Assembly (NCBI GenBank): GCA_905178155.1
Contig: CAJINV010000013.1
Coordinates: 1,044,344-1,108,343, forward strand
DNA from: Amoebophrya sp. A120
Taxonomy: Eukaryota; Protista; Dinoflagellata
Reading direction: 5' to 3'
DNA: 64,000 nucleotides
Below are positions 16,901 to 55,100 of this stretch, piece after piece. Both the position numbers and the translations under genes were made by a program. The number at the start of each line of letters is the position of its first letter. Within the stretch, counting starts at the first letter, position 1. The notes under the pieces were generated by a model, which saw only the letters and a list, made by a program, of their open reading frames with translations, was not told the origin of the DNA and ran no database searches.

Positions 16901-19900
16901 TTCCACGACCGAAGTAACGTGGAGCTGCTTCTTCTCCTGCAATTCGAACATGCGGGCCATTTTCAACTTGAAGTGACTCGCGTTGAAGAGAAACTTCCCG
17001 TATTTACACAGCTCCAATTTCTTCGTCAATTTCTTTTTCTCCTCTTCAGACAATTCAGCGGTCGGTCGTGTCGTGAGAAACGAGGTGGATGTCGACCCGG
17101 TATTAAAAAATTTACTTGTAGTTCCACCTGCGGCAGCACTGACTGCAGTCTTGGACCAGAAGTGCCCCTATTGCTACCTCTTGCGGATAGACGTGAAACA
17201 GATGTGCAAACTTCTAAAACTGCATCGATCTGGCCGCGTTTTGGCACCGCGGTCCGCCTCCTCGGCGCTCTTCTTTTCTCGTCTTTGGTCTCGGGGTGCC
17301 GCGCTCGGTTTTTTTTAGCGGATTCGCTCATGGCAGATTTTGCTGCAGCGCCGAAAATTAAAAACATGAGGCGCCGGCCCTTTTTTTTCTGAAAGCACGG
17401 GGGGCGAAGCGAATAGGACAACCTTCTCCGCGCGCGCAGCGCGCGCGAAAATTTTGTTTCATCTCGCCCCCGCCGCCGCGGATTTTTTTTCTCTGGTGCC
17501 GCTCGGCGGCAGGCCGGCAGCAGCTGTGAGGCACCCGCGCGGCAGCTGTGCAACAGCCCGCGCAGCAGCCGGAATCAGGTGCGCAACAAGTGTGCAACAA
17601 GTGCGCAAGAAGTGCGGATGGGTGTGAAATAAGTTCGTTTTCTTTTAGAAAACGACTTACTTCACACCCATCCACACTTGTTGCACACTTGTTGCACACT
17701 TATTGCGCACCTATTTCGCAACTCTCTCACACCTGTGTAAAATTTGTCGCGAGCCTGCCCCCAACCGGCCTCACACCTGTCTCGCAGCCGTGCCGCAGGT
17801 CCCGCGCAGCGCGGCCTGCGTTGGGGCCGGGCTGTTGCACGGCTGTCGCACAGCTGTCCGCGAAGCCTCTCTTTTGCCACCCGCGAACGGTTTGGGGGCC
17901 GGGGGCCTGGCTCTTGACCCGGGCCCGGTGATCCGGTCGGCCCACGCTCGCCCTAGGCAACCCCAACGCGCGATGGCCCGCGACCACGGGCCCAGTCGAT
18001 TACTTCTCGCCGTGCTGTGCATTGTGAAAACGCGATGGCCCATGCGGAACGGGCCACCCCTTTCGTCCGGCTGGAAATTTCTGCACTACTATTTCACCTC
18101 TATCCGCAGAGTAATCCTATAGGGTGCTTTGGGGCCAAGCAGTCGTTGCCACACTGGACAATGGCGACGGCAGTGGAGAGGGTCCGGGAGTAGTGCGATG
18201 ATTGTCATCAACATCCTCTGGACTTTGCTCGGGGGTCCACATGGGGGCCGTGATGAAGTCGGGGGTCGGTTCCGGGGAAGAAGATGCTGGTAGATCCTGA
18301 TGATGGAGAGCTGCCTTTGCGGGGTCATCACCGTCGTTGTTCTGGCGCCGTTTTCTGCTTCCTGACGATTTTGTCGTGGTCTTGGTTTCGACGACACTTC
18401 TATTCAAAGCTGGTCTACTCTCAAAATCAGCGGAATCCTGCAGCTGCGTATTTATTTGCTCCTTGCTATGCCTTATTTCCATCGCGGGTCTTTTTTCTTT
18501 CCCCTTCTTCTCCCTTCGCGTCTGCTCTTCCAGCTCCCGCTCCCACTCCAACGCCCTCTCGTCCATCTCTGTTCGCTCGTCGTATTCCTTTTTCTTATTT
18601 TCCGCTTCTGAGGTCGTGGATACCAGCTCGAACAGTTTTCTTTCCCGTTCGCATTTCCGCACGTACGCCGCCTTTTCCTGCTCCAACTTGCGCTCGATCC
18701 GCGCACAGTTTCGCTGCTGCAGATATCCGTCCTCCTTCCGGATTCTGGCCAGCACCGCCCTCTTGTCCCGGATCCCTTCCGCCTTTACCAGTCGCACCGC
18801 CGCCCGGAGTCTCGTTCCGAGCTTGGCCTTCCGGCCGGCGGAGCCCCGCTCCATGTCCAGTCGAAACCGCTTCTCCGTGTAAGTCTGGAACAACGTGGGC
18901 GGAAGGTGCGACGAGTTTTTTGCGTTGCTGCAGAGAGAACTGTCGCCGCGGACCCGGGGAATAATCGAAGTAAAGTCCTCGCCGCTAGTAGTATCACTAT
19001 CATCTTCTTCTAGAGAACCTTTTTTTTCACCGTTCCGTGGTACTATCTTCGCCTTCGCGGGGTTGGTGTTTCCGTCCGCGCAAAGCTTCAAGATCCCGGC
19101 AAAGCCGCCGATCGCAAGGCTCGACTTGTCCTTCGCCTCTTCGGCAAACATGAAATCCACCGGCTTCGGCCCGATTTGCCGTTCGGTCTTCTTGCATTTG
19201 ATGGAATCGTGGAACAAGTAGCGGCCGAGCACGTGCAAGTACGTAGTATGCGATGGAAAAAAATCTATCGAAGCAGGAGCCACTCAAAAATTTTTTGTGA
19301 ATGAATTTTCCAAAACCTCATCGTAGTTCACGAAACTACACTGAGGACGCGAACAAAAGCGCCAGCCACTCCTCTGTATCCATTCCATGAAGATTCATCC
19401 CACGTCTGTCATTGCGTTGAAAATGCACATATTTTTGCAAGAAAACTATCTATCGTTTTCGTTCGATCAAATTTTTTCCATCCATATTCTGGCCGACCGG
19501 TGTAGTACTCAGACCTCCGGTGTTCGAAGAATTCCTTCGTGGTCCAGCAGCCGTACGGATCTGGCACTGTATGCAAAGAAAAAAGTGCTTACAGTTACAC
19601 TTTGTGTCGCAAAACATGCAAGACAGACGAGCTCTGTTATGCGCAAAATGCTTGCGAGTCCGGTTTTGTGATTGTGTTTTGGGTTTTGGTTTTGCTTTTG
19701 CGTAATGAGCATTGCATTACAAGTTTTCTCCGTCATGTGAGGCAAATTTGTGATGCTGAAGTCACTACAAAAACAAATGTGTAACTGTAATACATTTCTC
19801 TCGTGATACCCTGGTCCAATCCGCCAGTAGTTTTCATCTAGACGCCAGTCGTACTTTCCGTTTTCGTCAAGATAGTTTTTCCACTCGTCCTTGCCAACAT

Positions 19901-24426: not shown

Positions 24427-25326
24427 GCTGATTCTGATTCTACTGGTTGTCGTTGAACTTTGAAATACTTCTTGGTTCTCCTGGTGGCCTCCAACTCACC
24501 CAAAAGATAGAACAAGTGGAAACAATGAAAAAACCAGCGCTAAGGCATTCGCATTGCACCGAAAGTTTATTCGAAATTTACATGGTTGTGAATGTGATTT
24601 CGGATTTTAAGACGATTCCTTTTGTTGAAGACGCTACTGTTTTTTCAACGATCATTATATCAATCACAACCTTCACGAAGGAATAAGAATTCGAATTGTC
24701 AAAACGATTTTGTAGACGAATCCTTTTGCCTCCCTCTGTGACAACACATAGTCTTAGTCACGGCGACCTAATTAGCTACATATTATATCCACGATTTTCG
24801 GATGACCATGAGACGACCACGATGGACGACAGAGTGCTTCTTCATTGGCCGGTGACCAACTTGCGAAGTATTGAAGGCTGAGGCGTATCTATGCAATGTC
24901 GCTGTTCTACGCCGACGAGCTACAACGAATTGATAGAACTACATACGTCAGCACCAAGGGGCCACGACACCGAGAACTTTTTTCGTCGAGAAAACTGATA
25001 ATTGCAAGGCTTGTCCCTTTTTATTCCACTCGTGACGAAGATATTTCCCGGCGGTGAACCTGCTTGTTTGACTTCAAGCCGACGAGTCGACACCACAACC
25101 GATGTGACGAACACAAACCGGGCAACGTTCCTAGTGGAAAAGACCACGAATAAACTCCAGTGGCATAATTTTTGTGCGATGCAGTTTCTGATGTTTTGAA
25201 CCTGAATATAGAAGCCAGGGGATGTGATCACATTTTTATCGTCGAATGTATTGAAAGTGGCGTGATTCCGATGTTCGTTGTTGTACGTCGGGGTTCTATT
25301 AGCTCCCCCGTATCAATTTCATCGTC

Positions 25327-27229
25327 TTACACCTCGTACATGGGGAACCTGGCTTCCACCGGGTTTTTCAGTGCGTGGAAAAACATCATGACCCCGGCGC
25401 AACCCTCGAATAATGACAGCGGTCTATCCGGCACCCGGTCGAACCCATCGGCCGCCTCGTTCTGCATCACCACCCGCGCGAAGCAGTGCGCGCGTCGCAG
25501 CCAGAGCTCGTCGTTCAGTTTTCTGTACAGACTGAGGAAGAAAAATCCGTTCCCCGCGATCCCATGACACAGGGACGCGGATTTGGTCAGCAGCCCGTAC
25601 TTCCAGCAACACTCGCCACACTTGACCGCCTGCTGCAGGTACTTCTCTTTCTCATTCACAAAAATCTCGCTGCACAGGATGAAAAGCGGGATGAACCCCG
25701 GCGCGCCGTGGCAAAATTGGACCAGTTTGGTGTCCATGGAGGTGAGTTTCGACCCGTAGTTCCCGGTGGCCGCGTCGTGGCAGTTGAGCATCAAGAAGTC
25801 GATGGACTGCTTCACCTCGGCAAGCTCGCTGTTGGTCAAAAATTCCCGCGCTTGCAACAGTTGCAGGAATATCCCGGCGAAACCGTGAGCGCCGCCGGTG
25901 TACTTCTTCATGTGCCACTCGTAACACAGCGCCGGTCTGGCCGCACGGGAACCGCCGTCGTTGTAGCTGCGGCCGGATTCCAGAATTTCCTCGACCGTTA
26001 TGCGAATTTTTGTGTTGAAGTCACCGTGTAACTCGCGGGCCAGGCCCGGGGTCGCGAAACCGCCCTGTTTTGTTTGAGTGGTGTAATCAGTGGTTTTGAT
26101 GAAGATGGCAAGGAAAAGCGTTGCAGAGCGCAAGCGATCCTTCTGCCTCCTGCTAAGCAAAAACCCACAGAGCAAGAATCACCACAACAACCGGACCAAA
26201 ATTGGAAACGAAGACTGACAAGAAAAGCAAAAACAATACCTTCGTCTGAAACTGTTTTCTGACGAACAGCAGTGCGAACAGAAACCCGGCTCTTCCGTAC
26301 AGCCACTCGTCCGATTTGCATTTTGACGAATCTACCTGCAGAAACCGGTTCACGCCGCCCAACAACACTCCCTCCAGCATCACAAAGTTATCGGGGGACT
26401 CCCCGTCGTACTCCACTACCCGTTTCCCTGACACTTGTTGCGCCAAGGTCCCCGTGCTCCCGCCCGAACTCGACCCCTTTTTCAGTAGCCCCCGGAGTTT
26501 GCTCAACCCGGTGGAACCGCCCGCGCCCCCGGACGCGGATTTTGGTCGTAATTGACTCAGTACACTGGACCGCCGTTGCACTTTCTCCGGCGGGGAAGAT
26601 GAGGGTGACGCGTTTGCTCCTCCTCCTTCCCCGTCGTTCTCATTTTGGTACTGAGGCCCGGCTTCACCCGCAGTACCACCTCCGTCCTTCAATTCAAACA
26701 TCGGATCGCTGTCTCTTTGCCTATTCAGTTCCTTCACGTGCTCGTTCACAGCGGAGTCTTTGATTTTCTCCAAATGTGCCGAACTCGTCATCTGCAACGT
26801 CTGCCCCATCGACGGGCGCTTCGCGGACCCGTGGCCCCCGTGGAGGGATTGCGGGTTCTTCTTGTGGTTCGCGAAAATGTGGTGTAACACCACGATACTG
26901 TAGAACAAGCCTGTCGCCAACCCGCCCCCGACGGCAACTGCGTGCGTCTCGACGCCCCGCTTGCCGTCCTTGTCGGCCCAGGACTGGTTTTTCTCGTTGG
27001 TCAAGAAGTACTCCGCCTGCTTCACGTCCTGTAAAACCCAGAGGGAAGCGAGGCCGGCCCCCGGTCCGCCGGAGTAGATACTGCCGGACTCGTTCGCGTG
27101 GGACAAGTCCTCGGAGATTTGCAAATCGTACTTTGCAATCTGCGCGTTGAGCTCGTCGACCGTGAGGAGCAGCGTCGTTTCATCGTCCAGGGTATTGGGG
27201 AAACAACGCGTCGCGATGGTGTCGGCCAT
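25327..27229 (-). CDS. LANCL: LanC-like protein (lanthionine synthetase C-like family), about 575 aa, two exons
   Basis: Motifs SIYSG, WLYGRAG, GGAHGFAGI, QFCHGAPG, SLCHGIAGNG, SLFEGCAG. Canonical GT-AG intron 26239-26065 joins the two ORFs in frame. Confidence 0.92.
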
Positions 27230-28626
27230 TTTTTTGGCGAGTTTCTGGAAAGGAGAAGTAAAAGGCTAAGATAAAGGCTGAGGCATAGTGTACGTGTAGT
27301 GTAGGTGTAACGCGGTCATGCGTTAGATGAATTGCGTGAAGACGTTTAGGAAGGTACTGTAGGAAGAAGAACAGAGGAGAAAGTCCACCGGCATAGTACT
27401 ACCTAGGCTCCTCGGGACGAGGCCATTTTGCGATGGGTGCCTATGTTGTAAGGCTAATTTACACTTGCGCGCATGCATTTTCATGGGTCCTGTCATGCAG
27501 ATGAGCGTATGTCTAAGTACTCTTTTGGATCTACTACGCGGAAATGTAGGGACGATGAGTGGACACAGAGCTCGTGTCTTGAAAGAGCCGAGCGCGAAGC
27601 TGGCGATGCTAGAGAAGAAACCGAACGAAGGTAGACGCGTGCACGTGATGCAACGGCCGTACGAAAACCGACCGGAGTGCTTGCTCCAGATGCAGTGATT
27701 AGTACGACAAGGCCAAAAATGCACGAAAACCGAGACGAGAGGGCGAAAATGAACCGAGAGGCAATGCCGCAATCATGAACAACCGAGGTTGGAGAATTAT
27801 TCGTCTGGTGAGAACCGAGTGCTTCTTCCGGTCAGCTGATACGAGCAGCAAGACAGGCACGAATGCCGATGAAAATAGTGTACACAAAAGAAATGTAAAT
27901 GAAGTGCCTGAAACGTTGAAGTTGTAGTTCTTGTCACACAAAGCTATTAGTATTACCCGATAAAACTATGAATGCTGTATGTAAGAAACAAAGCTACTTT
28001 CAATGAAAAATGTTACAGTTGCTAAATCAAAAAAGTAAGACCATGAGAAAATTGCTGTGAAAGTGGAACCCAAAAAGTTGTTGTAAATCAGGGAGAACGT
28101 TGAAAAGTTGCGAGTTAAATCCAACTATTTTTTCGAGAAAACATGATGCATGCTACAATTCTAGTGTAAACGATGTCACCTACCCTTTAATGTTTGTCTG
28201 ATACTAGGTATTGAAATTTTATTGCTTTGCGATAATGATAAACTCAAAATGCGAAACGAAAATTACCATATTGACATAGAAATTTGATTCGGTACACTGT
28301 TACGCTTCCTCTGCCTCTGGTGTCTGAAACTAGAACGAATGCGACTCAAAGTCAAACGAGATTTTTCTGAATCTGAAAGAAACTCAAATACAAAGTGCTA
28401 TCTTCGATAAACTGAATCAATGCTACTTACTTCAAATAAAAACCGTACTTCTATACTACTTGCTACCATGCGCGAACGCCTCGTCGTCAGAACCAAATTT
28501 ACGTCTACTAGATTGTGGAGCTGATTTAGAGACAAGCCGCGTTGTATTCTAGCCGACACCTATCTTATGCTTATCAAAACCCTGGCTCGCTCCTACCAGT
28601 AGTACGAAAAAACTTTCGTGCCTTTC

Positions 28627-31600: not shown

Positions 31601-34600
31601 ATCCGCATGTTTTTCAAAAGCGATCTCGACATCTGCAGGTCGGATAGGCTGTAAGAATTTTTGTGCGGTGCGGTTTGACTACGGAGGTTCGACATTTTGC
31701 TGATCTGTTCCTCGGCGGCTTTCGCCGCTGCGAGCATTTCTGGCGGTAGGTTGTCGTTTTCGTCAGGAAGTTTGTTCAAACAACTGCCTTGTCCAGCACT
31801 GCTGCCGTCAAGCGTCGGACTACTCGCGTTGTCCAAGCCCTGGAGGAGCATCGGCAGCCAGTCGGAAACGACACCGAACGGCGTGTGGTACTTGCCCGTG
31901 GGATTATTGAGTTTTGTGGTGGCCAGCAAGTCACCAGTTTTCGTCGGGGATGTCTGGCACCGCGGTGAAAGAGCAGCAGTTCCTGCGCCTTCGGACAGTT
32001 GTCCTCGTCCCGTGGATGCATTATCAACCCCTTCTCCGTGGTTCCCTTCGATCGTATCAGCCACGGCTTTCTCCACACCATCCACGATCGCGCGGGCAAT
32101 CGACCCCGCGTCGCTTCTCTTTGCATCATCGGGCTGTAAATTATCCGGCATTTTTGCCTTTTCGTTTTCCAGCTCCTCCAGCGTTTTTTCGATGCTGTTC
32201 CGCAAGTCAATGTCCAAATTTGCCATTTCCGACTGGTGCTCCTCAATGGACTTCAAAACCTCCTGTTCCCGGAGATTTTTCGTTGTTTTGAAGTCGTTGT
32301 CGTCCAGCAAATCACTCACGTTAAAGGGCGTCGGGGTCGTGCTCGGCCGGTAGCCCTGCGCACTGCCCATCCGGAGAATCGGGTCCGATTGCAACAAGCT
32401 GGTGGTCGAATGCCGGGAGTTTTGCCGGCTGTTCCGGTAGCTCGGGGCTTTGTTGCTGCCCGGAGTGCGCAACTCGGATTGTTCGCGGAGGAACGTCAGC
32501 AGGTCTTTCCCGGCAAAGTTCAGCGACATGGCGTTCTGCTTGTCCTGCTCAGACATCGGCTTATCGGCGGTGGAGGGGTTGGTGACATTTGTTCCGCCAG
32601 AAGGCGTGTTCTTCCCCCCAGAAGCATTGTTGTTTGCCTGAAGATCGTCGTCAGTCGCGGCTCCCGCTGCTGCTCCAGAAAGCAACTGCCGTCTGCTGGA
32701 CCCGCCGGTGCTCGACTTGCTGGCCTCGCCGACGTTTTGGCCGGCCTGCGCCTTCCGGGCCGCGGCGAGGTTCACAACGTGCGAGTTGGCCTCCTCCAGC
32801 ATTTGCACGACGGACTCCATGAACGGAGACAGCGGCCGCTTTTCCTTCGCGCTGTTATTGAAAAACCCTACTGCGGCGGACACCCGCGCCCAGTCGTCGT
32901 CGTAATTCTGCAGCGTGTATCAAATGCAAAAATGTCTGGGTCTGGAAACTTGTGATGCTGGGTGGCGTCTCATGATGAGGCCACAAGTGCTGGCTCAGCA
33001 TGACAAGTTTCTGAGCTTCTAGGAAGGTGTAGGTGTTGCCTATTCTGCATGACACACTGCGTTTCTGCATCACAGAAAAACGCAGCTCTTGGGTAACGTG
33101 CATGACAGATTTAAGAGTCATGCCAGACAAGCATGACAAACATGCATTCTTCCAGACCCAGACACTTTTGCATTTGATAGCGTGTTCGTGGTCCCGTCTT
33201 TCGTGATCTGCGGCGCGGCGGGAAAGATGCTTTCTTGCGAATGATCCCCAATCAGACTGTTTGCACTGTTTTGATGCCCTGCATTCGCCGCGGAAGTAGA
33301 AGTTCCCATGAAGCTGTCCAGGCTCATAGTGCCATGCTTATTGTTCGTCTTCTCGTCGAAAGAGTTACTTTCGTCTTTGTCTTTGTCATGCTGCCCACCC
33401 GCACCCGCCACCTCCTTGACCACCTTCCGGGAGACCGCGCCCTGCCCGGTTTCCAGGGCGTTTTGGCGTCGCCGCCAGGTGACGGACGTCTGCGAGCCCC
33501 AGGCGGGGAAGAAGGCGGAAGATGATCCTCCAGCTCCTCCCGAGGGGGTGTGCAGATCGGACGCGGAGTTCCCGCTTGCACCTCCACCCATTTGGATGGA
33601 GCTGGGCCGGCTGCCGTTGATATCGTGGAAGTCGCGCAAATTTTGCTCCGCCTGCAGCGAGACCTGTGCAAACATGTCATCGGGGTCGATCTGGATACTC
33701 TTCTGCTTCAGCGTTGTCTTCTCCGCGGTAGATTTTCCAGTCACTATTCCTGGCTCGCCAGCCGTGGACTTTCGGCTCTTGTTCGACGCGTTTGCAGCTT
33801 CGGTTTTGCTCGCCCCAGTCGCGGCAGATTTCTTCGTCAGGGAATAAGTCGTCTTCGTGCTCTTCACGTGTAGGCTGGACGCTAGGCCGAGCGAAAGTTT
33901 TCGGTCGCGAATAGATTTCGTGTCCTTGACCGGGGAATCGGGTTCTCCTTTGGAGTTCTTGTCAACAGCAACTGAGCCGTCTTCTTGCTCCGGCGCGTTT
34001 CCCTCAACTGCTGTCTCAGCGCTGGTACCTGAAGAAGCCGCCCCCGGGGTGGCCTCCTTCTCTTTCTCCCCCCCAACTTCCTTTTCCAGCAAGGTCGATG
34101 CAGTGACGGACGGTGGCTCCGTACTGTCTGCAGCAGCAGCGCCATCAGCCCCCGCAGCTGCCCCGCCTGGCGGTAATTTCGTCCACCCTTTCGGCGGTTC
34201 GTCTTGCGGCAGAAGTTGCAAATCTAGTTGTTGGTCATTTCCGCCCGTCAAGGTCGTACAGGACTCGGTTCCGGACGCGGTCTGGTCCTCCTCTTGCGTT
34301 TCCTCATTCGCGAGAGTACTGGAAGAATCTTCGTTGGCAGCATCGGCTTCTGCTTGCTTGTTTTCAACACCGATTTTTTCCTCGTCCGATCCCGTAGCAT
34401 CACGCCCCGCATCCTTCTTCTCTTGATCCTCAGCCACGGGACCGAGTATCCCCGCAGGAGCAACATCGGTCATCTCTTGGGAGATGACCACAGCCTGACT
34501 CATGACCTCTGTCTGTGCAACGATTTGTGCTGCAGCCTCTCCAACCGGAAGCGCGGTATCTTCTCGTGGACGCTGCGAAGCTAGAACATCACCAGCACTT

Positions 34601-42763: not shown

Positions 42764-45700
42764 TCATTGCTTTTGCCCACCACGGCGACCCTCTTCCCTG
42801 CTCTTCTCATCCTCCTCCTTCTGAATTTGCTCCGGCGTTTTGCCTCGTCGCCTATAACAGTGCACAACTCCCCCTCCCCCTCATTTGTGTAGCATGAACG
42901 GCAATACAAGCATCAGCAAGAGTGCCGGTTTTGCATGACAAATTTGCACTGAATTATACATAGTGCTATTCGGGCTACCAGAACTTGTCATGCAAACAGT
43001 GCCACGATGCAAAGGGTGGATTGGGTATTTTGCATGACAAATGAGGGGGAGGGGGAGTTGTGCGCTGTCATATCGCCGTTGCTTCGTGTTGAAGTACTGC
43101 ACCGCCCGGACGAAGTCGTCCGCGTGGTAATCGGGAAAGTACTATGCATTGCAAATATGTCTGGGTCTGGAAGGTTGCAACTTGTGATGCAAATTTCACA
43201 CAACACAAAGATCTGTGATGCATGAACAGCAAATGCGGCCCAAAACTTGGCCCAAAAACAGCGAATCTGTCATGTGGATCAGGCATGGGGATACCTTCTC
43301 AAGACGTGTGATGCTATGGCTTGCATGCCAGACCTCCTAGATCATGCAAGAGCAGCATGGCAAATATCTGGACCCATCCAGACCCAGACATATTTGCATT
43401 TGATAAGTACTTGGACTCGAACAGAATCTCGGCGTAGCGCAACTGTGGTAGACAAAACTCGGACAGCCGCTGCTGGTCGCCGGTTCTGTTGTAATCAAGT
43501 GCGTGCGATAATTAAGCTCGCATTCTTATTTCTCGAGCGCATTAGTTAGCACCAAAACTGTCTTTCGACCAGTGCACAGCAGGTGGCGCAAAGCAGTTCT
43601 ACCTGTGCCTGCTTGTGCTTCTTCGATTATGTTTATGACCTCACTACAAACTACATCATGATAAAAACCAACCTCTCCAAAAAAAAATACCTGACGAGGA
43701 GATCAATCTCTGAGTCGATGCCCATGAAGGACATCAACTTTTCGAAGTCCCAATCCAAAAATTCTGCATTTTTCTTTATCAGGTGGTCCTGGTGCATGCG
43801 CTTCATCGCCTCCTGGAGTTCCCAGCTCGAACTGTACGAGAGCAAAATGTTCAGCCGCATTTTCTTGTGCTTCCGCGTGCTGGTGTGGATCTCCTGAATC
43901 AGAGCCCGAAATTTCTGCCGCTCCTCGGTGGAAAGCTGGTAGACGAGATCGGGTTTTTTGTTATCAACATCGTGGTTAACCTGCTTCTTCGTCTCGTTTG
44001 AAGATCTTCCATCCGCTGCTGGTGCTCCCGCTGCGCTCTGCTCGCTTTTTTGTCGCTGGAATTCCGCGTTTTGCATCACTTGCTCCGTTGTCAACTGCCG
44101 CTGCTGATCCGCTTGCGCAAGCGAGTCAATCGACTGGCCGGAGGAGGACTTGGACCTGACTCCGGATAATTCTGTGTTGAGTTGTAGTCCCGCAGCAGTT
44201 GCAGTGGACGGCGCACCTGCATCTTTATTCCCACTCGACGTCCCAGTGACTTGCCTTTCCGGCGTGGGGCTCCCTCCTGCTTCCGCCTGCTGCTCTATCA
44301 AAAGGAAAAATCCCCCCTCCCCATATCAAAACGAGATTTCTGATGCTGGATTTGGGTACACAAATCAAATTTGTGTTGCAGTAGAGGAATGCACAGCACA
44401 GATCCTGAGCCTGGGCGGGGGCCATTTGGTGTAGGCGCCTAGCATGGTAAACGGCTATCCTGTAGGCCTTACAGCGTTACAAATCGCCTGCATAGCGTGC
44501 CGGACAACCTGAGCGCGCCTTCTTGCAAGACAGACCCCATTTGTGGTCACAAATCACCAGCACAAATTTTCGGAAACATACCTTTTCGATATGGGAAGGG
44601 GGGATTTTTCCTTTTGATATGCTCGCCCCGAATGTCTTCCTTGATGGAACTGGCGTTCGACGCCCTGCCGGGGGAATGATACCGGAAAAACCCACCGTGC
44701 ACGGGTGTCGGGGTGCTCACGGCACTGAAGTTGGGGAGCTGCTGTTGATCATGCCCTTGTGGTCTACAACTGCTCCCTTGGCCGCCTATAATCAACGACG
44801 AGTTGTCTCCACCGCCTGCAGGTCCCGTGGCAAGGGGCCCTCCCAATGCAGCGGTGCTCATTGCAGACAGTTGCAACGGCTGCGGCCGCAGGAGAGGGAA
44901 GGCGGCTTTCTGCTGCAGCAACCTGGTCATAGAAGACGTTGGCGAAGCAGAGGATAGTGGTGCTGGTGCCCCACCACAAACTCCTCCTGCTGCAGAAGAG
45001 ACCACAGGCTGCATGGTCGTGGCTGATCCAGTTGTACTAGAGGCTCCTCCTGTCGCGGTACAACTACTTTGCAGCTGCCCTCGTAGTTGCTGTCCACCGG
45101 CCGCGCCCAGGAGGTTCATCTGATTCATCTTCGCGCACAGCGCCTCGTGCTGTTGCGCTTGAAATTCTTCTTTCGCTTGCGAGTTCCATACCACGTTGCA
45201 CCAGGAGGGGGATATCGACCCCGCCTGAATTTGCTGGAACGAACTACTCACCCCGGAGAAGAGCGAGCCGCCGGATTCCGAGGGTTGCTTCAGCGTGACC
45301 GACGAAATGGTCGAGGCCAGTGTATCCGGCGAATCGCTCCGCTGGGGCAGGACGCCTGTGGGCGGCACCGGGAGAAAGCTCTGGGCCGCCTGGTCCGCCG
45401 CAATCGGACCGGCGGTAGGTGGAGTGAAGGGTTTATGCAAGTAGAGAAAAACTGTGTTAGTCTGATGAAGAAATAACAGATGCGCGGCCCTTTACGTTTA
45501 TTTCACACTTGTCACGCCGGATGGTGATCTTGGTACCGTCAGAGCGGCTTTCCATGGTTTTAACAAGGGACTCCGCGTACTTCTAGTGGCGCACGTTATC
45601 ATGCTGCTCATCGAAAAATGTACTTATTTTTACACCAAACACAGACTAAACTAAAACTTTTTTTTTGAATAGGGAGGTGCGCTGCTCTGCTGCTCCAAAG

Positions 45701-47903
45701 CATTTCCTTGGACCACTACACCTGTATTAGTACTACGCTGCCCGTCTTCCCGCTGATGGTCACCACCTTGTCCCTCGACCATAACTCCGTCCTGCTCCTC
45801 CTCCTCGTCTTCTCGTGGCGAGTTCCTGCGAGAGCTCAAGTTGCTGCCATCACTTACCGGGGTGGGTAGGTGCTCGGAGGAACTGGTATCCAACACGTGC
45901 GGCTGTCCTTCCTCGGCATTATTTCCGGGCGGTTTGCCGAAGCCCTTTCCCTGTGAAGATCCACGGCGCGCGGACGACTTCGAGGTTGTGTCCGACACAA
46001 CCTCGAAGTCGTCGAAAGGGGGCGAAAGATCGCCGATCACGCGAAGCTGAATTTCGTTGTCTTTCAGCTGTTTTCGGAGCTCCGGATCGGTCAAAAAGTT
46101 CGTGAACCTAGCCATTAAGTGCTGCACTTCGTCCTTAGGCCGCTTCCAATTGTCCGAACCTTGAGGACGTAGAAAAAAAGTCAAGTCATGTTATCAAGGA
46201 GCTTTTCCACAGATGCATGGAACAAATAAGAACAAATTAGAAAACCAGCACGCCTCGTATCTTAAATTTTTGTGGTTCAAAAACCTTAAGCTCCGAACAG
46301 GTCACTTATGAAAAATGAGAAAGTAATTGAAAAAATTGTATACTGAAAGCGTATAGCGTCAGTTGCGGAATGCCAATTTTCGCCGCCGTTTCGATCAACT
46401 CGCGGACATTTTTCTCCGCCTCACTGTGCCCCGCAGATCGGTGGAACCCCCTTGAAGACGCCCAGCGCCCGTTCCCGTCCATCACTACACCCACGTGGTT
46501 GGGGAGCTCAAGTGGACCGCGTTTTGCCAGAGGTTTCTTCTCCGTATCCAGCTCGTGGGTGACTGTCGGGTAAAACGCGAGCAGCTGGTCTAGCGTAAGC
46601 GGCTTGGTAAAAACCGTCCCACCCGTCGAGGAGGCTTGTTCCGCAGTTTTCATATTCACTTTGGTCAGGAAACTTGACGCTGGACTGTTGCTTTCTGCAG
46701 CCTGTCCGCTCGACGTCGTGGCTCGGTCAACATTCAATGAGTGATTGTTCCACCAGAAATTTTTGCACTTGAAAAAAAAATCCTCCGGCGTAGTTGCCGC
46801 TTCAGTAGCGGAGGCTGACGTCGTCATCTTCGTGCTGGTGCCCATCAGGCTAGTACCACTCAAAAGAGGATGCGCTGCCCGCGCCCAAATCGAGGTTGGA
46901 AGCAGAGAGGAGTAGTAGATTGGCGCACCACCTCCAGCAGGTTCTTTATTTTGTGAAGATCCGGCTACAACTACTTCCCGCTGCATTTCCGCCTCATACT
47001 GCTGCTTCCGCAGGGTCAACGCCTCCTCGAAAGTGGGGATCTGGAACGACGGGGGAGCGAAGTTGACATTGACGGCGGGGGTAGAGACCAAATGCATGCC
47101 GCGCTCAAAATTAGTGAGCGACCAGAAGGGCGCTGCATTCAAATTCATTGGCGTCGTGCTGCTGCTGGCCGCTTCTTCGCATGAGAGAACCGCAGGTCCG
47201 TTGAGTTTATCGACTCTTGTTCCTGCTCTACCAGTAGATGACGGCGTTGCTGAATTTTTGCAACTACTAGCCAATGACCCGGACTGCTGGCCACTAGGGA
47301 GGACGGAAGAGGAACTAGTACTGCTCTCTCGACGAGCGACATCGTCCTCCACTTGGGTCACCTCCTGCTCCAGGGGGAACGACACCGTCTTCGCATATCG
47401 TGAGGAAAAATCCCCCCTCTCCACATCAAAAAGGGATACTTCTGAAAATTTGCGATGCTGATTTGTGGCCACAAATCGTCTCTGTATTGCAAGAAGGCCA
47501 AGCCAGAGACTCCGCCGCATTTTGCAGGCGGTTTCTGATGCTATGGGGCCTACAGAGTACACATTTGCCATGCTACGCGCCTACGTCAAAACCCTTCTAC
47601 TTAGGCTTGGTATGGGCCTGCAGTCCTCTACTGCAAGACAGACCCGATTTGTGTACCCAAATCCAGCATCAGAGACTTCCTTTTGATATGGGGAGGGGGG
47701 ATTTTTCCTTGTGATATCGCAACCGCCGTTTTCTGGTGCTCAAAGAGCTTGGCTCGGCCAATCGTCGACGCAATCGTGGAGGCAATAGCGGTGCTGCTCA
47801 CCAAGAGGAGGTGACAAAGTGGCTGCACCCATTTTTTCGGTACAGGGAGAGGAGATCTCGAGAGACGAGTTCTGGTAGAAGACACGGGGCCGCAATTCGT
47901 CAT
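42764..47903 (-). CDS. cis-prenyltransferase (UPPS/DHDDS family), about 1,119 aa, eight exons
   Basis: Motifs PNHVGVVMDGNGRWA, GH, YAFSSDNWKRP, RVIGD, LNILLSYS, DLLVRTGDQQRLSEF, YAEILF, FPDY and QRRRG are assembled from exons 47903-47717, 47390-46344, 46159-45672, 45428-44620, 44290-43691, 43485-43406, 43137-43073 and 42847-42764 (3,360 nt). Confidence 0.9.
42853..43072. mobile_element. TIR intron element, family C
   Basis: TATAACAGTGCACAACTCCCCCTCCCCCTCATTTGT with an inverted copy. Perfect TCGCC TSD. Removal restores the C-terminal RRRG motif. Confidence 0.95.
43143..43405. mobile_element. TIR intron element, family A
   Basis: TATGCATTGCAAATATGTCTGGGTCTGGA with an inverted copy. Perfect AGTAC TSD. 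Removal gives ESKYFPDY. Confidence 0.95.
44296..44619. mobile_element. TIR intron element, family B
   Basis: TATCAAAAGGAAAAATCCCCCCT with an inverted copy. Perfect TGCTC TSD. Removal gives IRGEQQAEAG. Confidence 0.95.
45434..45671. mobile_element. Probable aged TIR intron element
   Basis: TATGCAA...TTGAATA ends, flanks GGGTT/GGGAG. Removing 243 nt gives SAPP|FTPP. An alternative GT-AG intron (about 45721-45452) also keeps frame. Confidence 0.55.
45973..46013. repeat. Perfect 41-bp palindrome inside coding sequence
   Basis: GACGACTTCGAGGTTGTGTC-C-GACACAACCTCGAAGTCGTC. Confidence 0.95.
47396..47716. mobile_element. TIR intron element, family B (opposite orientation to 44296-44619)
   Basis: TATCGTGAGGAAAAATCCCCC...GGGGGATTTTTCCTTGTGATA. 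Perfect TCGCA TSD. Removal gives TAVAKTVSFP. Confidence 0.93.
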
Positions 47904-48446
47904 TTTCAGTGATTGATGTGAATGGCAGTCGTGTTTTTCTCAATCGGTGTCAACGTAGCTGCGTCAGGATGGAAACAGCAGGTGGAAAAAAATGATTTGT
48001 CTCACAGCATGGTCTACTTACGCAGAAGGTGAAGCACAAAAACATACAGCGGATAGCAACCAAATTAAGACAACATCGGCGCATTGGCAAGGCACAATGG
48101 GAGCAATAAAACTATCCATCATGATACGTATTCAATTTTTTTGCAGCTGTTGATCTTTACGCAGAGCAAGACAATAAAGCAATTATGCTCTTTGTGCATA
48201 CTTTGATCAGGATCGAGATCCACAACCGCCCTGATACCATCGTAACACAATCACAACGAACTAAACCAAAGCAATTGCCCGCTGCAGGAGAAAAAACAAA
48301 AAGAAACGCGGCGTAGGCGTTTGGACTACTTAATAAAAAAAATTCGACCAGCATGAATGTTGCTCCTCGCTCAACCTGAACGTGAACACGATACAACAGG
48401 CTCGAATTTCATAAATCTACTTCTTCATCAAAACTAGATCGGAATG

Positions 48447-49672
48447 CTACCTTCGACCACGACTTGCGGTTTTTTCATTATCAGGAAAAACTTCTTGTTC
48501 AGACGCGTGCACAACCACGGCTGAAGATGTTCTGGAAGCATTTTTCGTGTTGCGTCCTGGAGTCGCTTTGTTCCGGAGTGAAGTCCGTTTATTGACGCGA
48601 CCTCCTGATGCACCTACAACCTCTAAATCCTGTTGGAAAAACAGCTGATTTGGCGAAAAAATCTCAAGAACTTCTTGTGCGGAAGAAGTTTTTCTTTCCA
48701 TCTCCTGCTGCAGCTCCCCCGCCGCTCTAATTTTTGCAGCTGGCATCCCGTAATTGCCTTGTCGTACAGACGGCACAAATATCTCTCCTGTTCCTTGTGT
48801 GCCCGTAGTTGGTCCACGAACGACTTGGCGCCCAGGCGCATGATACGGAAAAAGGCTAGCATAGTAACAGCATATTATTCATTATAATATTGGAAATGCA
48901 AAAATAGTAGAAAAATCTGTCTACACTATGCAAGACAGACTTTAGTATTTCATCTGCGCGCTTATTTCTGCATAAACAGATTACACATGTGATTGTAATG
49001 GGGTAAGTAGTAATAGCTTTTTCCTGTGCGATAATGCGTCGACCGTGTCGGATTCGGTCGGGAGCGTGGGGGTACCGGTGCGCTGTGCGTCCCGGCACGG
49101 CCGAGCCGTAAAAATCTCGTCGTACTGTCGTCCTGATCCGCGAAGAAGCTCACGCCGGCGTCTTCCTGCGTGGCGAGCAGCGACGCGAGAGACCCACCAA
49201 GCGGGTCAACAAATGAGCCGGTGAGGCTTAGCTCGTTTGCGGTGTGGATTGAACCAACTGCTTCGTGCTGTGATGTGGGATTCTTATTGTGCTCGATAGC
49301 TCCTGCGCCGGATGTTGACAGCGCACCAAGAAAACTGGCAGCAGATTGCTCCTCGTGCGCGGCCCGGAAATTCTTCAGCGCGAGCATGTAACGCATATCA
49401 TCGGACGTATACCTGGTTGCGTGAGAAAGGCTAGAATCTGAGGCCGGGCCGAAGACGCCGCTTGTGCGATCCGCTGCAGACGTTGCTGGTGAATTTATTT
49501 TCGTCCCGATCACGTTGACGGAAGTCCACAGGGTGGTGCCATCGTTTTGATGGTCTGCATCACCCGCCGCAGCTACGTCACCCACGAGATCGCATGGGCC
49601 ATTTATTTTTGTGCAGCTCTGCTGGTAGCCACGGGCGTCCTCCAAACACTTGCCTGTTAGCAAGGCGCCCAT
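48447..49672 (-). CDS. Hypothetical protein (ends uncertain), split by one TIR intron
   Basis: ORFs 48962-49672 and 48447-48776 join in frame (RSTH|GRQVVRG) when 48834-49033 is removed. Confidence 0.6.
48839..49033. mobile_element. Aged TIR intron element, family D
   Basis: CATGATACGGAAAAAGGCTA vs TATCGCACAGGAAAAAGCTA. Flanks AGGCG/ATGCG. Termini resemble 52928-53119. Confidence 0.75.
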
Positions 49673-50674
49673 GTGTTTGGTCTCGTGTCCTGGCCGCTGG
49701 CTGGGTGGTGCCCTCTTTAAAGCACAAGTAGCAGAAACAGACTTTATTTCCTTTACCTATTGTGACCACTGCGTGGGAACAGAACGCACACTAGTAGGTC
49801 ACTCTCCAAACCAAAAAAAAATCACTGAAGAGCGTGCATGATATCGGAGAGCTACCGGCAGGACGTCCGTGCGGCTGCGGCCTTCTACTAAAAAATCAAT
49901 AAAAAGAGAGAAAGTCATATTTCAATCGTAGGAGTGCGTAACAGAAGCAATTATCTAAAGAGTAAGTATGTCTCTTCTATTGAATAGATTATTGTCTGCT
50001 AGCTGAAACTACTTTTACCACACGTACACTCCTGATCCTGCTGATGCTTTATGTGTAACTAATGGTATCTTGTGCCTCGCGCCACCCTTCTCTCCACAGG
50101 CACAGACGTACGAACGATCTCTGACGTTAAACCTGATAGTACTGCGGCGAGCCAAACCTCGAGCGTCCTCTGTCGAACCGGAAGCATATGGCCTCTCTTA
50201 CCTCACTCTTAACATGACAACAACAAATTGCCGTGTACTAGAAGATCGATATCCAGACATGATTATGATATTTGCATTATGCATATGCGACGAAAACAAG
50301 CGACGCGACCCAAGCGATGCAGACCGATCTGGGAAGTTCGGTCTAGCCGGTTAGAAGCATCAATATTTATGAAGATGATCGCACACGCGTTTAATACGAA
50401 GCGAAAACTTAAAACATAATGCCACAGAGGCCTCGGAAAGCACGCTGCCGCCCCCTCTGGCAAGACAGAGCAAAGCTGATTTGTATGCACAAAGAAATCA
50501 GCGGCAGCAGCATGATCGATCCATGTTGTTGAGTAGAAATGTCTACTGTAGTACCTTGGCAGTCTGTGAAGGAAAGATTTTTTTTTCATGCTTACAAAAA
50601 AATATGTCCGTCAAAGATGATTTTCTCACTCCGCCTAGGAACAGGTGGACACAAAGCAGCCGATTTCATTTCTC

Positions 50675-51039
50675 TATACATTGCAAACATGTCTGGGTGG
50701 TCTGGAAAGATGCAAAGTTGTGATGCTTAAAATGACTTGTGATGCTCGTAGTTGTCCGTGTTAACACACAAAAATCTGTCTTGCAAGACTCGGAAAAGTA
50801 CCCATTTTAGGGCATGTTGCTGTAGTGCTTGTAGCCATGTACATGTTGACAGTGCACTTCTCCTACAGGATAGGCATCGCATAGACCCTGCTAGATCTGT
50901 GATGCTAGGCCCCACATTTCAGACATCGTGGGGGCGGGGCTTGCAAAACGAAAACCTTCACCTGCATGGCAAAGATCTGCATCTTTCCAAATCCACATCC
51001 AGAGCCAGGAATTCTATTTCTAAGTATTTGCATTTGATA
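50675..51039. mobile_element. Degenerate family A TIR element
   Basis: TATACATTGCAAACATGTCTGGGT...TATTTGCATTTGATA. Flanks TTCTC/TTCTT. Insertions within both TIRs. No clean frame restoration. Confidence 0.8.
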
Positions 51040-51049
51040 TTCTTTTCTA

Positions 51050-51776
51050 CTACGGTTGAGCTACTAGCACTGGCTCTCCAATGTTCGGATTCTGGTTCGG
51101 GTCGAGGTTCTGGTACCACCAAGAAAAATTGGATGTGCCAAGCTTTTGTGGACAGTGGCCTTGGTCCCCCGGCACGATGTCCCAAATAGTTCCACAGGGC
51201 AAGTTTTTATTGCTTTCGTCGCTAGAAGCTTCTAAACTTGTTATCCTCGCCTCACCAAACCAGAAATCGTGCTCTTGATACCAGTACCCAGAAACGACGT
51301 CCCCGATCGGGAGTTGTGCACTCAACATGTGCGCTTGTTCATCATTCTGGGCATAATCGGTCCAGGACGAGCTCATACCCCATTCGTGGTTTATCAAATG
51401 CAAATACCTAAGTATGTCTGGGTAAGGAAGACAACTGTGCCGGCACCCATTGGGCGACATGACAAGTACTAGTTGGGAAGTGGATTGCGCGCAGAAGCAC
51501 TACGGGTCTTCGTCTTGTTGCGAAATATTCTTCATGCATACCTACTTTTCCGCATGAGAAGTTCTCCTCTTGCATCGCAAAAAAGAAGCAACTATCCGTA
51601 TTCCCACGCCACACATTTATGTGCTGTTGAGATTTAGCATCACAAGGAAGTTGCAAACGCATCAATATTCCAGACCCAGATGACATATCTGCAGCGCATA
51701 TGGTTTATGCTCAGTGCTTGCAGGACCGGCAAAGAAAAAACCACGTATATCCGGAGTGGAAACGACGCCCTTGCCC
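51050..51776 (-). pseudogene. Possible gene fragment or pseudogene between two decayed TIR elements
   Basis: Removing 51387-51700 gives an open frame ...IYVVFSLPVLQALSINHEWG...VAQP, which stops at tandem TAG codons just before the next element. Confidence 0.35.
51392..51700. mobile_element. Degenerate family A TIR element
   Basis: TATCAAATGCAAATA(CCTAAGTA)TGTCTGGGT...TTCCAGACCCAGA(TGA)CATATCTGCAGCGCATA. Perfect TGGTT TSD. Confidence 0.85.
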
Positions 51777-52167
51777 CTACGTAAAGAGGGAAAAGTTTGC
51801 GCAGAAAAGTCTAGAGCTTTTGGGGCTCGCACGTGACAAGTTAGGCTTTGCAGTGTAGTCGGGCGTACTAGCTAGTCCAGACGCGGTACAAATCCTCTTT
51901 CTTATCCGTGTTACCGAAGCGCACGAAGACAGATTGAGGCTCTCAAGCACCACTAGAAAATGCCTCTCATGTTGGGAAGCCGATCATCATCATCATCATG
52001 TAGTGGACACCCGCTCCCAGCGCGACAGGTCAAGGAGCCGAAGCCGCAATCCAGCGTATCGAAATTTGCATGACAAGTCTGGGGTGTTTCTTTCATGTAC
52101 TGGAAATAAAATCCAAATAATTAAACTTAAAGCACAGAGAAGCTTGTTGGGGTGGGAACGTTTTTAC

Positions 52168-55100
52168 TCAGATGATAACGTAGATGCAGAGCACCTCCAG
52201 AACGAAGCACAAACGAGGCAGGAACAGGCTCCGTGTCACAGGCACAAGTGGGCCATCCGCACCACGACCAAGGGGGCCGTCCGCACCCCCTCCTGCGTCG
52301 TTCAAATTTCGCCGCCCACGATAGTTGTGCCACGCGGGCCGCCGTAGGAGCCGCCCGTACCCTAGCACCACAACAAAAGCAATGCACAAAAGCCAACCCA
52401 GAAGCACCGCCAGCGCGCGAAGGTATTGAGGGAAAATCAGTGATCTTGGGAAATGCTGCTACCCCTAAGAAAAATCGCAGCCTGTCATGCGGACCTGCTA
52501 TTTCCCTGTGTGTCGTCTCCTTTTCATACATGCGGGCGCAAAAAAGCACACCAGAAATCTCCTTTCCATTGCAAAAAGCGAACCAAATAAACTCACTCCT
52601 TTCCATGCGGTCTAGAGTGACTTTTCGTGGGCGTTTTGGTTTTCTTCGCATCTTCGCAAAGAGCCATTTATAGGCGAACCCGCGTCAGGCGCTGCCTTTA
52701 TTTTTCTTAAGACTAGCAGCAGTCGGGAAGGTCACTCATTTACCCTCCATAGAAGGGCTACCATGCGGTCGATATCTTCGCCGAGACGGTAACCTAGGCC
52801 CCGTTTCTGGCAATTATCCAATGGCAGCCCAGTTTTCGTGTGATAGAGCTGATGAGTTTTCCAGTTATAGAGCGGACCTCCTTCTGGGTAAACCGACACC
52901 TCGGCGTTCACGTCGTGCAGCGTTGTGTATCCCACAAGAAAAAGCTAGCAGCTTAATGCGAAAGCAAATACATAGAAAGTTCCGTCCTGAATAGCCTAAA
53001 CGCCACCCATGCTCTGGGCCTGGTGCCCATCATGAGAGGTCTTTTTGCCATTGCCTATTTACTTTTCTTGCATATAGATTCACAAATATGTTCCCTTGCT
53101 AGCTTTTTTCTGTGTGATATCACATTACTACCTTTCCCGAAGAGCCGCCATGCGTAGAAAACTGGGACGTTTTCCCCGAGGAAAATTTGCACCGTCTCGA
53201 ACAAAAGCATGAAAAACATCGAAACGGGGGCGCACATGTAATGGGCCCATCGCAAGTATTTCCGCGAGGGCCGCACGTGCCTTGCGAGGACCTCCTCAAA
53301 CAGCTCCACGTTCGATCCCGTCCTCGCTTCTCGCGCTTCTTCTTCGTCGTCGTCTTCGTTCGGCTCCTCCTGGTGCTCCTCGCGCAGCTGCAACTTTTTT
53401 TTCTCCTGGTCACTCGGAGACGAGTCCTCTGCCTTCACCTTCTGGACGTTTTCGCTTCTTGCGGAGGTCATAATTTTCTCGTGGTGTGTAATATCGTCGA
53501 TGGAGGGCAGGGCTGCAGTTAAAACGAAGCCGGTCGCGGGAAGGAGGAGCAGCAGAGCCCGGAGGCAAATATTCAGTGCAAATATGTCTGGGTCTGGAAA
53601 GGTGCAACTTGTGATGCTGCCTTTGGATTCTACATAAAATCTGTATTGCGTGAACAGTAGAAGAGGTCCAGTTGTTGCTACGCAAAGAGAGCAAATATCA
53701 TGCGGTAGGAGCATCAGAAAGCCCCCACAGAATCTGTGATGCTAGGGCATGCATCACAGACATAAGAAGTCAGGCAAAATGTGCATGACAAACCTTGCAC
53801 CGTTCCAGACCCAGAAACTTTTGCATTTGATAGCAAATCTCGGTGTACGACTGGGTCGCCGCAAATGTCAAACCCAAATTCTCCGAAAGACTCGGCTTCA
53901 TGAAGCACCAGGGCGAGTGCAGCGTAAAGGTGTGCCGACTCAGGATGATGCACACGCCAAAGAGGATCAAGCCCGTGGTGAACATAATGCCCTCCGGCGA
54001 GGTCTGCGACTGGCAGACGGCGCTCAGGGTCATGTTCTTGCAAAAATCCCCGGGTATCACGTAAAACTGCTCGTCATGGAAGCCACGGATCAAGTGCTCC
54101 CGCCCACTGGCAACGAGCTCCTCTCTGTGCCGGCGGGTCGGAAAGCGCCGCGGGCACAGGACCAAATGTACGGGCAGCAGCGTCGCACCCACGGCGGAGA
54201 TGTATGCGATCGTGACTATCAAATGTAAAAATGTCTGGGTCTGGAAAAGTGGAACTTGTAATGCTAGCTTTACATTCCTGGAAAATCTGTATTGCAGAAC
54301 CAACAAAAGTCGCAGCCACTTTTGTCATGCAAAAAGGCAGTTTCTCATGCGGATTGCGTATGAGAAAGCGTTCTGGAAAGTTGTCATGCTGGGCTGCGTT
54401 CGGAAGTAGTTCCGTCATCCACATTTTAGCATCACAGGTCTCCAGACCCAGACATATTTGCATTTGATAGTGACGAGTATGCTGCTAAACATGAAGTCGG
54501 ATCGCACCGTGCCAACCAAGAAGGCAAACATTTTCTGCAAAATGATGTCGGTGACCGCCCCCGCCTCGCGGACGCGTCCCAGTGCTTCCGTGGTGTTTTG
54601 GGCCAATTCGGCGGACCGTGCGGACAAAGCTGCATAAAAGTCCTGACCTTCTACTCCCTCATCTTCGTCCAAGTTGTAGCGAGTCTTGATCCCTTCGCTC
54701 GTCCTCTTCGCATCAGCTCCTGGTGGCGCGGTGGTGCCCACCATTTTGTTTCTGGATCCGGCCTTCTCGGTCGTACTAGTCCCGCTCACCCGCAGCTCCG
54801 TCGTCGCGGGTTCTCGTTCTGCTGGTGAGTTTTCATCATTTCGACCTGGTGCGCCGTTCTGGTTGGATTTCTCTACGTAGCTTTCGCCCAACGAGCTCGT
54901 TCGCGACAAAGAAGTAGATCTCCTCGTTGTGCGCTCTGGCGGCTCCTGCTGTCGCTCCTGCAGCTGGAGAACTAGCCACTTCAGCTCGTCCACCTCCCGC
55001 GCCATGCCCTCCATCTTCACCTGCATCGCTTTAGTGCCGTCAGTTGTCATCTCGGCATCTTCAGCTACTTCAGGAGATTCAACTTGTAGTTGCGCTTGCG

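What the first reader, a model, noticed from the sequence alone, without database searches (positions are those of the whole stretch)
17164..53124. The element-plus-5-nt rule persists after the direct repeat has decayed
Seen: at 17169-18121, 19247-19486 and 52928-53119 the flanking 5-mers match at only 1 of 5 positions, yet removing the element plus 5 nt (958, 245 and 197 nt) still restores the frame. The other elements form a 5/5, 4/5, 3/5 decay series. Inference: the cut sites are measured from the base of the TIR stem (a staggered, ruler-like cut), so repeat homology is not required. Chance of three in-frame joins is roughly 1 in 27, and the frame test fixes length only modulo 3.
Basis: partly seen in the sequence, partly recalled or inferred. 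Interest (0 to 1): 0.8.

Follow-up and report, generated by a model that had tools for sequence, protein, structure and literature searches.

The report
Transposon introns cut without repeat homology
In a marine parasite genome (likely Amoebophrya A120), already published hairpin-ended jumping elements are missing to the base from likely RNA contigs even where their flanking 5-base repeat is gone, so removal likely counts from the elements' TAT/ATA ends rather than matching repeats; one of the three cited cases is a wrongly bounded element with an intact 6-base repeat.

Summary
Two of three cases hold. Likely-RNA contigs skip exactly 245 and 197 nt (element+5) at 19247 and 52928, whose flanks match 1/5. 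The third fails: the contig skips 994 nt, not 958. The real element is 17151-18138, with TTGG..CCAA ends and a perfect 6-nt repeat. All 15 shown TAT-element joints equal element+5 and allow one register: cut 1 nt before TAT and 4 nt after ATA. Only 19243-19487 fixes that register, from one shallow contig. These are likely the published Amoebophrya A120 introners (PMC7789003), whose cut positions that paper calls variable or unknown. Repeat homology is not needed. A ruler from the stem base is weakly supported: the terminal pairs are predicted in 7 of 15 elements, stems show no G·U bias, and the 6-nt case breaks it. A sequence anchor read by a relaxed spliceosome fits better but is untested. 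'Decay series' is doubtful: 6 of 133 family copies match 2/5 or less, where about 0.05 are expected. This scan noted the -1/+4 register before on other pieces of this genome; my searches found no 6-nt exception.

The parts
17151..18138 (.).
   Evidence: X5 unitig breaks at 17180 and 18109, loose ends at 17151, depth 88-172 against 42 in flanks; arms aligned; fold
17145..17150 (.). left copy of the perfect 6-nt direct repeat GCAGTC
18139..18144 (.). right copy of the perfect 6-nt direct repeat GCAGTC
17145..18144 (-). span holding the 994-nt skipped segment (7 equivalent registers)
   Evidence: X1 joint 17144/18139
19243..19487 (-). 245-nt non-canonical intron, A|TAT...ATA|CTAC (AT..AC ends); element 19247-19486; flanks 1/5; the only joint here with a unique register
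   Evidence: X1 joint 19242/19488, one contig, depth 3
52924..53120 (-). 197-nt non-canonical intron (or 52923-53119); element 52928-53119; flanks 1/5; intron tail CACA is the reverse complement of exon end TGTG
   Evidence: joint 52922/53120 in X1, X3, X4; fold z -4.9
15845..16099 (-). TAT-class element, 5' end TAC, flanks 3/5, skip 260
   Evidence: X1 and X2
19570..19808 (-). TAT element, flanks 4/5, skip 244; limits the register to two options
   Evidence: X1
45434..45671 (-). TAT element, flanks 3/5, skip 243
   Evidence: X1-X4
42853..43072 (-). TAT element, 5/5, skip 225
43143..43405 (-). TAT element (TATCAAATGC family), 5/5, skip 268
44296..44619 (-). TAT element, 5/5, skip 329
47396..47716 (-). 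TAT element, 5/5, skip 326
51392..51700 (-). TAT element, 5/5, skip 314
51748..52177 (-). TAT element, 5/5, skip 435
52424..52751 (-). TAT element, 5/5, skip 333
53570..53832 (-). TAT element (TATCAAATGC family), 5/5, skip 268
54217..54469 (-). TAT element (TATCAAATGC family), 5/5, skip 258
58853..59112 (-). TAT element (TATCAAATGC family), 5/5, skip 265
32918..33179 (-). TAT element (TATCAAATGC family), 5/5; no reads laid here
48839..49033 (-). likely element, 3' end ATG instead of ATA, flanks 4/5; joint itself not shown
   Evidence: contig pieces start at 49034; frame joins on removing 200 nt
43486..43690 (-). canonical intron GTAT..CAG
46160..46343 (-). canonical intron GTAT..AAG
55683..55822 (-). 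canonical intron GTAA..CAG

Best explanation
These elements are likely Amoebophrya A120 introners whose 5-base flanking repeat is likely only the scar of insertion; they are missing from likely RNA contigs with exactly one repeat length even when the repeat is gone, and a relaxed major spliceosome likely places the cuts from the end sequences, 1 base before TAT and 4 bases after ATA. Steps. (1) Insertion with a 5-nt target duplication: inferred from 108 of 133 family copies with perfect repeats. (2) Removal of element+5 from transcripts: shown in contigs at 15 of 15 shown TAT joints; that the runs are RNA is inferred. (3) Independence from repeat homology: shown at 2 sites. (4) One register, N|TAT...ATA NNNN|: shown at one site, compatible at 14. 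(5) TAT supplies the U(+2)A(+3) of the native GUA donor while +1 and the last four bases are free, the 3' cut is counted from an A in ATA (a possible branch point), and the hairpin only brings the ends together: inferred, untested. The 988-nt family with a 6-nt duplication is an exception in length but still offers U at +2 and A at -7 in two of its seven registers.
For: Joints. X1-X4 also skip 3 canonical GT-AG introns, while DNA-like X5 shows none of the four exon joins in 10001-30000. The canonical donors here are GTAT, GTAT and GTAA, so they share +2/+3 with N|TAT. In Table S4 of PMC7789003, all 9 listed predominant A120 non-canonical ends begin NT and all 9 for A25 begin TT, where the repeats start TTA; my inference is U+2, A+3 in both strains. 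That paper reports 83 of 89 spliceosomal proteins and all snRNAs except U1 in A120. In 128 strand-called elements with flanks 4/5 or better, +1 and -4..-1 are free. The stem base is not a stable landmark: terminal pair probability is under 0.5 in 6 of 15, position +5 is Watson-Crick paired in only 38 of 74 family copies, and G·U against A·C is 19:17 in the window and 35:57 in the family. Frame calls fit +5 modulo 3 in 51 of 53 confident family copies.
Against: No lariat, branch point or inhibitor data. Under this register there is no trace of canonical preference: AG at -2/-1 in 6 of 128 and G at +1 in 37 of 128. TAT and ATA are equally conserved at both ends (127-128 of 128), which transposase needs, young age and my TAT/ATA-anchored search would also give, so this does not show reading by a spliceosome. 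One strand-called copy (L097) has G at -7. L087 may have C at +2 (strand not confidently called). The unique register rests on one contig of depth 3; without it a 0/+5 register also fits this window. All RNA-like runs are one sample. Ends in Table S4 may be biased by aligners that prefer GT-like positions. The organism is inferred from motif match, not shown by a tool.
Confidence: 0.5

Rival explanations
1. One reading: a non-spliceosomal endonuclease and ligase (or a structure-guided machine, as proposed for euglenid nonconventional introns) measures staggered cuts from the base of the RNA stem.
For: Fixed overhangs of 1 and 4 nt fit 15 of 15 joints; terminal dinucleotides are free; strong folds at 52928 (z -4.9) and 17151; U1 not detected in A120; euglenid introns pair +4..+6 with -8..-6 and are released as circles.
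Against: Terminal pairs are predicted at 0.8 or more in only 7 of 15. The 19247 fold is weak (z -1.67, 13 of 200 shuffles as good). The helix extends outward at 52928 with no shift of the cut. No G·U excess on the transcribed strand. A -1/+4 ruler on the 988-nt element would remove 993 or 995 nt, but 994 is seen. Fold predictions are crude.
Confidence: 0.25
2. No special measuring device: the machinery has several possible cut sites near the ends, +5 is inherited from insertion, and selection keeps only copies whose main product restores the protein.
For: PMC7789003 calls splice sites variable relative to the hairpin (Fig. 3 legend) and places A120 repeats 1-5 nt from splice sites (Fig. S23 legend). 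The 6-nt case shows the length follows the duplication. Contigs hide minor products.
Against: That variability is what perfect repeats would produce by alignment ambiguity. The three most constrained joints (19242, 19564, 52922) share one register.
Confidence: 0.15
3. The joints are reverse-transcriptase template switches or homology-driven skips across hairpins, not splicing.
For: Strong hairpins with direct repeats favour such skips (established knowledge, recalled). It cannot be excluded for the 994-nt joint with its 6-nt repeat, where a true 958-nt splice at the inner TAT..ATA would also keep frame.
Against: The joints at 19242 and 52922 have 0 and 1 nt of shared sequence, yet are exact and restore frames of 1891 and 998 residues. 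The 994 form is the only one assembled, and the 958 form adds 12 residues with two tryptophans to a Ser/Thr/Ala stretch.
Confidence: 0.05
4. The elements are excised from DNA (as with ciliate internal eliminated sequences) or are absent alleles, and the contigs are DNA.
For: X1-X4 are only guessed to be RNA.
Against: They also skip canonical introns.
Confidence: 0.05

Closest known systems
Introner elements / non-canonical introns of Amoebophrya sp. A120 (Farhat et al. 2021, PMC7789003; read: abstract, passages, sections 10 and 16, last part of section 4, supplement passages incl. Table S4; figures not seen)
   Same: Inverted repeats starting TAT, seven variable bases, then an A run; short direct repeats at the borders; non-GT-AG removal beside canonical introns; lengths near 240 nt; multicopy families.
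   Different: The paper leaves the borders variable or unknown. Here one register fits all shown TAT joints, removal persists with 1/5 flanks, and one family has TTGG..CCAA ends with a 6-nt repeat (the paper surveyed repeats of 3-8 nt in Fig. S21, not seen). [quoted passage not shown]
Nonconventional introns of euglenids (PMC4770533, passages; PMC11282704, passages and section 6)
   Same: Non-canonical ends brought together by paired ends at fixed positions from the cuts, with a longer 3' overhang; likely MITE origin; direct repeats frequent but not required; mechanism unknown.
   Different: Euglenid pairs sit at +4..+6/-8..-6 (CAG/CTG) with pyrimidine|purine junctions and compensatory changes. 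Here they sit at +2..+4/-7..-5 (TAT/ATA), junction bases are free, and no strand-specific pairing signal was found.
Transposon-derived non-canonical introns of Fritillaria borealis (PMC11282704 section 6; PMC13326754 search listing only)
   Same: MITE-like introns with TIR and TSD, removed by a spliceosome that tolerates non-GT-AG ends.
   Different: Fritillaria has preferred ends (AG-AC, AG-AT) and keeps U1. Here the only fixed end base is +2 U, and spliceosomal removal is not shown.
Introners of Micromonas and Aureococcus (as described in PMC11282704 and PMC7789003, passages)
   Same: Non-autonomous DNA transposons removed with one target duplication.
   Different: Those use canonical splice dinucleotides supplied by the element or co-opted from the duplication; here no AG is co-opted (6 of 128).

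Membership tests
Amoebophrya A120 introner elements | Inverted repeats at both intron ends starting TAT, seven variable bases, then As | tested here: met
   Arms aligned for 15 RNA-joined elements; 19247 and 52928 read TAT-7-AAA on the 5' arm; 15845 starts TAC
Amoebophrya A120 introner elements | Direct repeat of 3-5 nt overlapping the exon/intron borders | tested here: inconclusive
   13 of 15 match 3/5 or better; 19247 and 52928 match 1/5, so these two lack it today
Amoebophrya A120 introner elements | Removed from transcripts without GT-AG | tested here: met
   15 joints in contigs of runs guessed to be RNA
Amoebophrya A120 introner elements | Repeated in the genome | tested here: inconclusive
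   Met for the TATCAAATGC family (133 copies in 144 loci); no other copy of 19247 or 52928 in the window plus 144 loci; no whole genome held
Amoebophrya A120 TAT-class introner (988-nt element) | TAT..ATA ends with a 5-nt repeat | tested here: not met
   Ends TTGG..CCAA, 6-nt repeat, skip 994; it works like an introner but is not of the TAT class
Canonical U2 spliceosomal intron | GT..AG ends | tested here: not met
   0 of 15 TAT joints under the -1/+4 register; 3 of 128 strand-called elements
Canonical U2 spliceosomal intron | Lariat with branch adenosine; needs U2/U5/U6 | not testable with these tools
   Needs lariat sequencing or inhibition
U12 (AT-AC) intron | U12 5' consensus and minor spliceosome | tested here: not met
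   19243-19487 has AT..AC ends but begins ATATGG, unlike the U12 consensus (recalled); minor snRNAs reported absent in A120
Euglenid nonconventional intron | CAG/CTG pairs at +4..+6/-8..-6 and pyrimidine|purine junctions | tested here: not met
   TAT/ATA at +2..+4/-7..-5; junction bases free
Euglenid nonconventional intron | Released as full-length circles | not testable with these tools
   Only contigs were available for this strain
MITE (non-autonomous TIR transposon) | TIR, constant target duplication, many copies, no transposase | tested here: met
   108 of 133 copies with perfect 5-nt repeats, about 240-325 nt; two ORFs in the 988-nt element without Pfam match; autonomous partner not sought

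The most novel reading that the evidence does not exclude
A120 runs a splicing code that ignores both terminal dinucleotides and any repeat homology: a U1-less spliceosome (or a new nuclease-ligase) takes U-A at +2/+3 as the donor and counts a fixed distance from an adenosine near the 3' end, so any transposon with suitable ends becomes a perfect intron at any site in either orientation. The 988-nt, 6-nt-repeat family shows the code accepts a second transposon geometry and is the natural experiment that separates sequence reading from a stem ruler.
Probability: 0.35. Interest if true: 0.8.

Novelty: new variant of a known kind. Interest (0 to 1): 0.55.

Why it matters
How more than 60% of A120 introns are removed without GT-AG and without a detected U1 is open in print (PMC7789003). 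Repeat-less copies turn an ambiguous junction into a readable one, exclude homology-driven skipping there, and give exact ends for lariat primers, minigenes and gene annotation. The 6-nt exception warns that frame tests modulo 3 misplace borders, and offers a direct test of ruler against sequence code.

Tried and rejected
No whole genome was held, so no genome-wide offset plot. No RNA holder is on record; X1-X4 are guesses. One search showed 15 of 26 joints; 11 were not shown and are not counted. Three X5 joints inside element 19570 (sides under 30 nt) were set aside as other copies. No reads were laid on 1-10000, 30001-41000 or 61001-64000. A protein search with exon 18141-19241 among longer proteins found nothing, so no ortholog showed the pre-insertion site. 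The first strand model was noisy and was replaced; strand calls kept 74 of 133 family copies and 128 of 194 de novo elements, the rest were dropped. The six family copies with flanks 2/5 or worse gave no firm frame verdict; some may be misassembled or wrongly bounded (L065, L107). A de novo search for other repeat lengths returned mostly inner palindromes of known elements. G·U against A·C gave no support for RNA-strand pairing. The idea that changed intron tails generally pair with the exon end fits 52928, 15845 and L021 but not 45434, 19247 or most 4/5 copies (read by eye), so it stays a lead. U12 identity of the AT..AC intron was rejected. No earlier scan note matched the 988-nt element.
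Full report
What the window is. The window is gene-dense DNA with genes on the minus strand, interrupted by short elements that begin TAT and end ATA with inverted repeats. This matches the description of introner elements in Amoebophrya sp. A120: repeats starting TAT, seven variable bases, then an A run, with 3-5 nt direct repeats at the borders (PMC7789003). The organism is inferred from that match; no genome was held.

Checking the three sites against transcripts. One search listed four runs guessed to be RNA (X1-X4, one sample) and DNA-like runs. Contigs were laid on 10001-30000 and 41001-61000. X1-X4 skip three canonical GT-AG introns, and DNA-like X5 shows none of the four exon joins in the first stretch, so X1-X4 are likely RNA. 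At 19247-19486 one X1 contig of depth 3 joins 19242 to 19488: 245 nt, element+5, with no possible slide. At 52928-53119 contigs of X1, X3 and X4 join 52922 to 53120: 197 nt, element+5, slide 1. For X3 and X4 the contig remainder of 1236 nt equals the four next exons, so no extra letters are likely. Both sites have 1/5 flanks, so removal there does not use repeat homology.

The third site fails. At 17169-18121 the X1 contig skips 994 nt, not 958. X5 unitigs end at 17180 and begin at 18109, and other copies leave loose ends at 17151; with 31-letter words this bounds a repeated element at 17151-18138 (988 nt). Its ends are TTGG..CCAA, the inverted repeat runs continuously through the inner TAT, and it is flanked by GCAGTC on both sides. 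The 994 joint rests on one contig, and an RT skip over a 6-nt repeat is not excluded.

The register. All 15 shown joints at TAT elements equal element+5 (3, 12; 11 further joints were not shown). All 15 allow an intron that starts 1 nt before TAT and ends 4 nt after ATA on the transcribed strand. Only 19243-19487 fixes this; 19564 and 52922 allow it or 0/+5. Table S4 of PMC7789003 lists nine predominant A120 non-canonical ends, all starting NT, none TA, which favours -1/+4, though aligner bias may contribute. The paper itself calls splice sites variable relative to the hairpin and the borders unknown (Fig. 3 legend). Searches, with passages read in PMC12130899, PMC11282704 and PMC11453091, showed no statement of a fixed register; figures were not visible. 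One search returned 10 earlier scan notes on this genome (8 shown), most stating a fixed cut; they are unchecked and not counted as support.

More copies. A pattern scan gave 144 loci (the 80 listed come from one assembly, whose relation to the window's genome I did not establish). They hold 133 full copies of the TATCAAATGC family: flanks 5/5 in 108, 4/5 in 19, 3/5 in 0, 2/5 in 1, 1/5 in 1, 0/5 in 4. A binomial fitted to the first two classes expects about 0.05 copies at 2/5 or worse. In the window, 2 of 15 have four mismatches against 0.06 expected under one rate. So repeat-less copies are not simply the tail of gradual decay; mixed ages, one-step changes or misassembly (in the loci) are all possible. 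At 52928 the tail CACA is the reverse complement of the exon end TGTG and differs from it by four transitions, which suggests hairpin-templated change (inference). A codon model gave confident frame calls for 53 of 133 copies, 51 of which fit +5 modulo 3.

Ruler or sequence? Against a ruler from the stem base: the U+2:A-5 pair has predicted probability 0.8 or more in 7 of 15 elements, 0.5-0.7 in 2 and under 0.5 in 6, yet all lose element+5; at 52928 the predicted helix extends four pairs outward and the cut does not move; the 19247 fold is not clearly better than shuffles; the fourth pair is Watson-Crick in 38 of 74 family copies; and G·U does not exceed A·C on the transcribed strand (19:17 in the window, 35:57 in the family; family copies are not independent). 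A -1/+4 ruler on the 988-nt element would give 993 or 995 nt. For a sequence anchor: in 128 strand-called elements of 194 found, +2 to +4 read TAT in 128, -7 to -5 read A, T, A in 127 each, while +1 and -4 to -1 are free; the canonical donors here are GTAT, GTAT, GTAA; and A25 ends start TT with TTA repeats, again U+2, A+3 (inference). But the search was anchored on TAT/ATA, both ends are equally conserved, L097 has G at -7, and AG is not enriched (6 of 128). The lead on A at -7 came from note e1-10589777.

Mechanism. Most likely (0.5) a relaxed major spliceosome uses the element's own ends, with the hairpin as a helper; A120 is reported to keep 83 of 89 spliceosomal proteins and to lack a detected U1. 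A structure-guided nuclease-ligase like that suspected in euglenids remains possible (0.25). Neither was testable here.

Verdict. The class is published. Repeat-independent removal at two sites and one compatible register are real additions to what I could find in print. One of the three examples is wrong but yields a useful exception. Interest 0.55.

Noticed in passing
window 17572-17717: Inside the 988-nt element, a 63-nt inverted repeat built of 11-nt tandem units with 20 nt between arms; X5 variants show several near-identical genomic copies.
   Followed up: partly
window 52923-52927 and 53120-53124: The intron tail is the reverse complement of the exon end, extending the stem across the 5' cut with one bulged A; may be a hairpin-templated one-step change.
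   Followed up: partly
L030, L047, L065, L098, L107, L127: Six family copies with flanks matching 2/5 or worse; L107 has 4- and 7-nt repeats in a CTT run; frame calls not firm.
   Followed up: partly
L097:66-325: Family copy with perfect 5-nt repeat whose 3' end reads GTC instead of ATA (G at -7), in a confidently strand-called coding context.
   Followed up: partly
window 48839-49033: Element related in look to 52928 with one end changed (3' ATG); contig pieces start at 49034.
   Followed up: partly
window 42220-48142: One transcript contig spans five TAT introns and two canonical introns of a gene of about 1131 residues with a cis-prenyltransferase domain (PF01255).
   Followed up: partly
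window 33181-40326 and 59115-63998: Long uninterrupted minus-strand frames (2382 and 1628 residues) with no Pfam match.
   Followed up: no
window 50913-51511: An X2 contig runs unspliced into element 51392: retained intron, pre-mRNA or DNA.
   Followed up: no
window about 56480-58030: Duplicated blocks of about 380 nt and an array of short repeats between two genes (seen).
   Followed up: no
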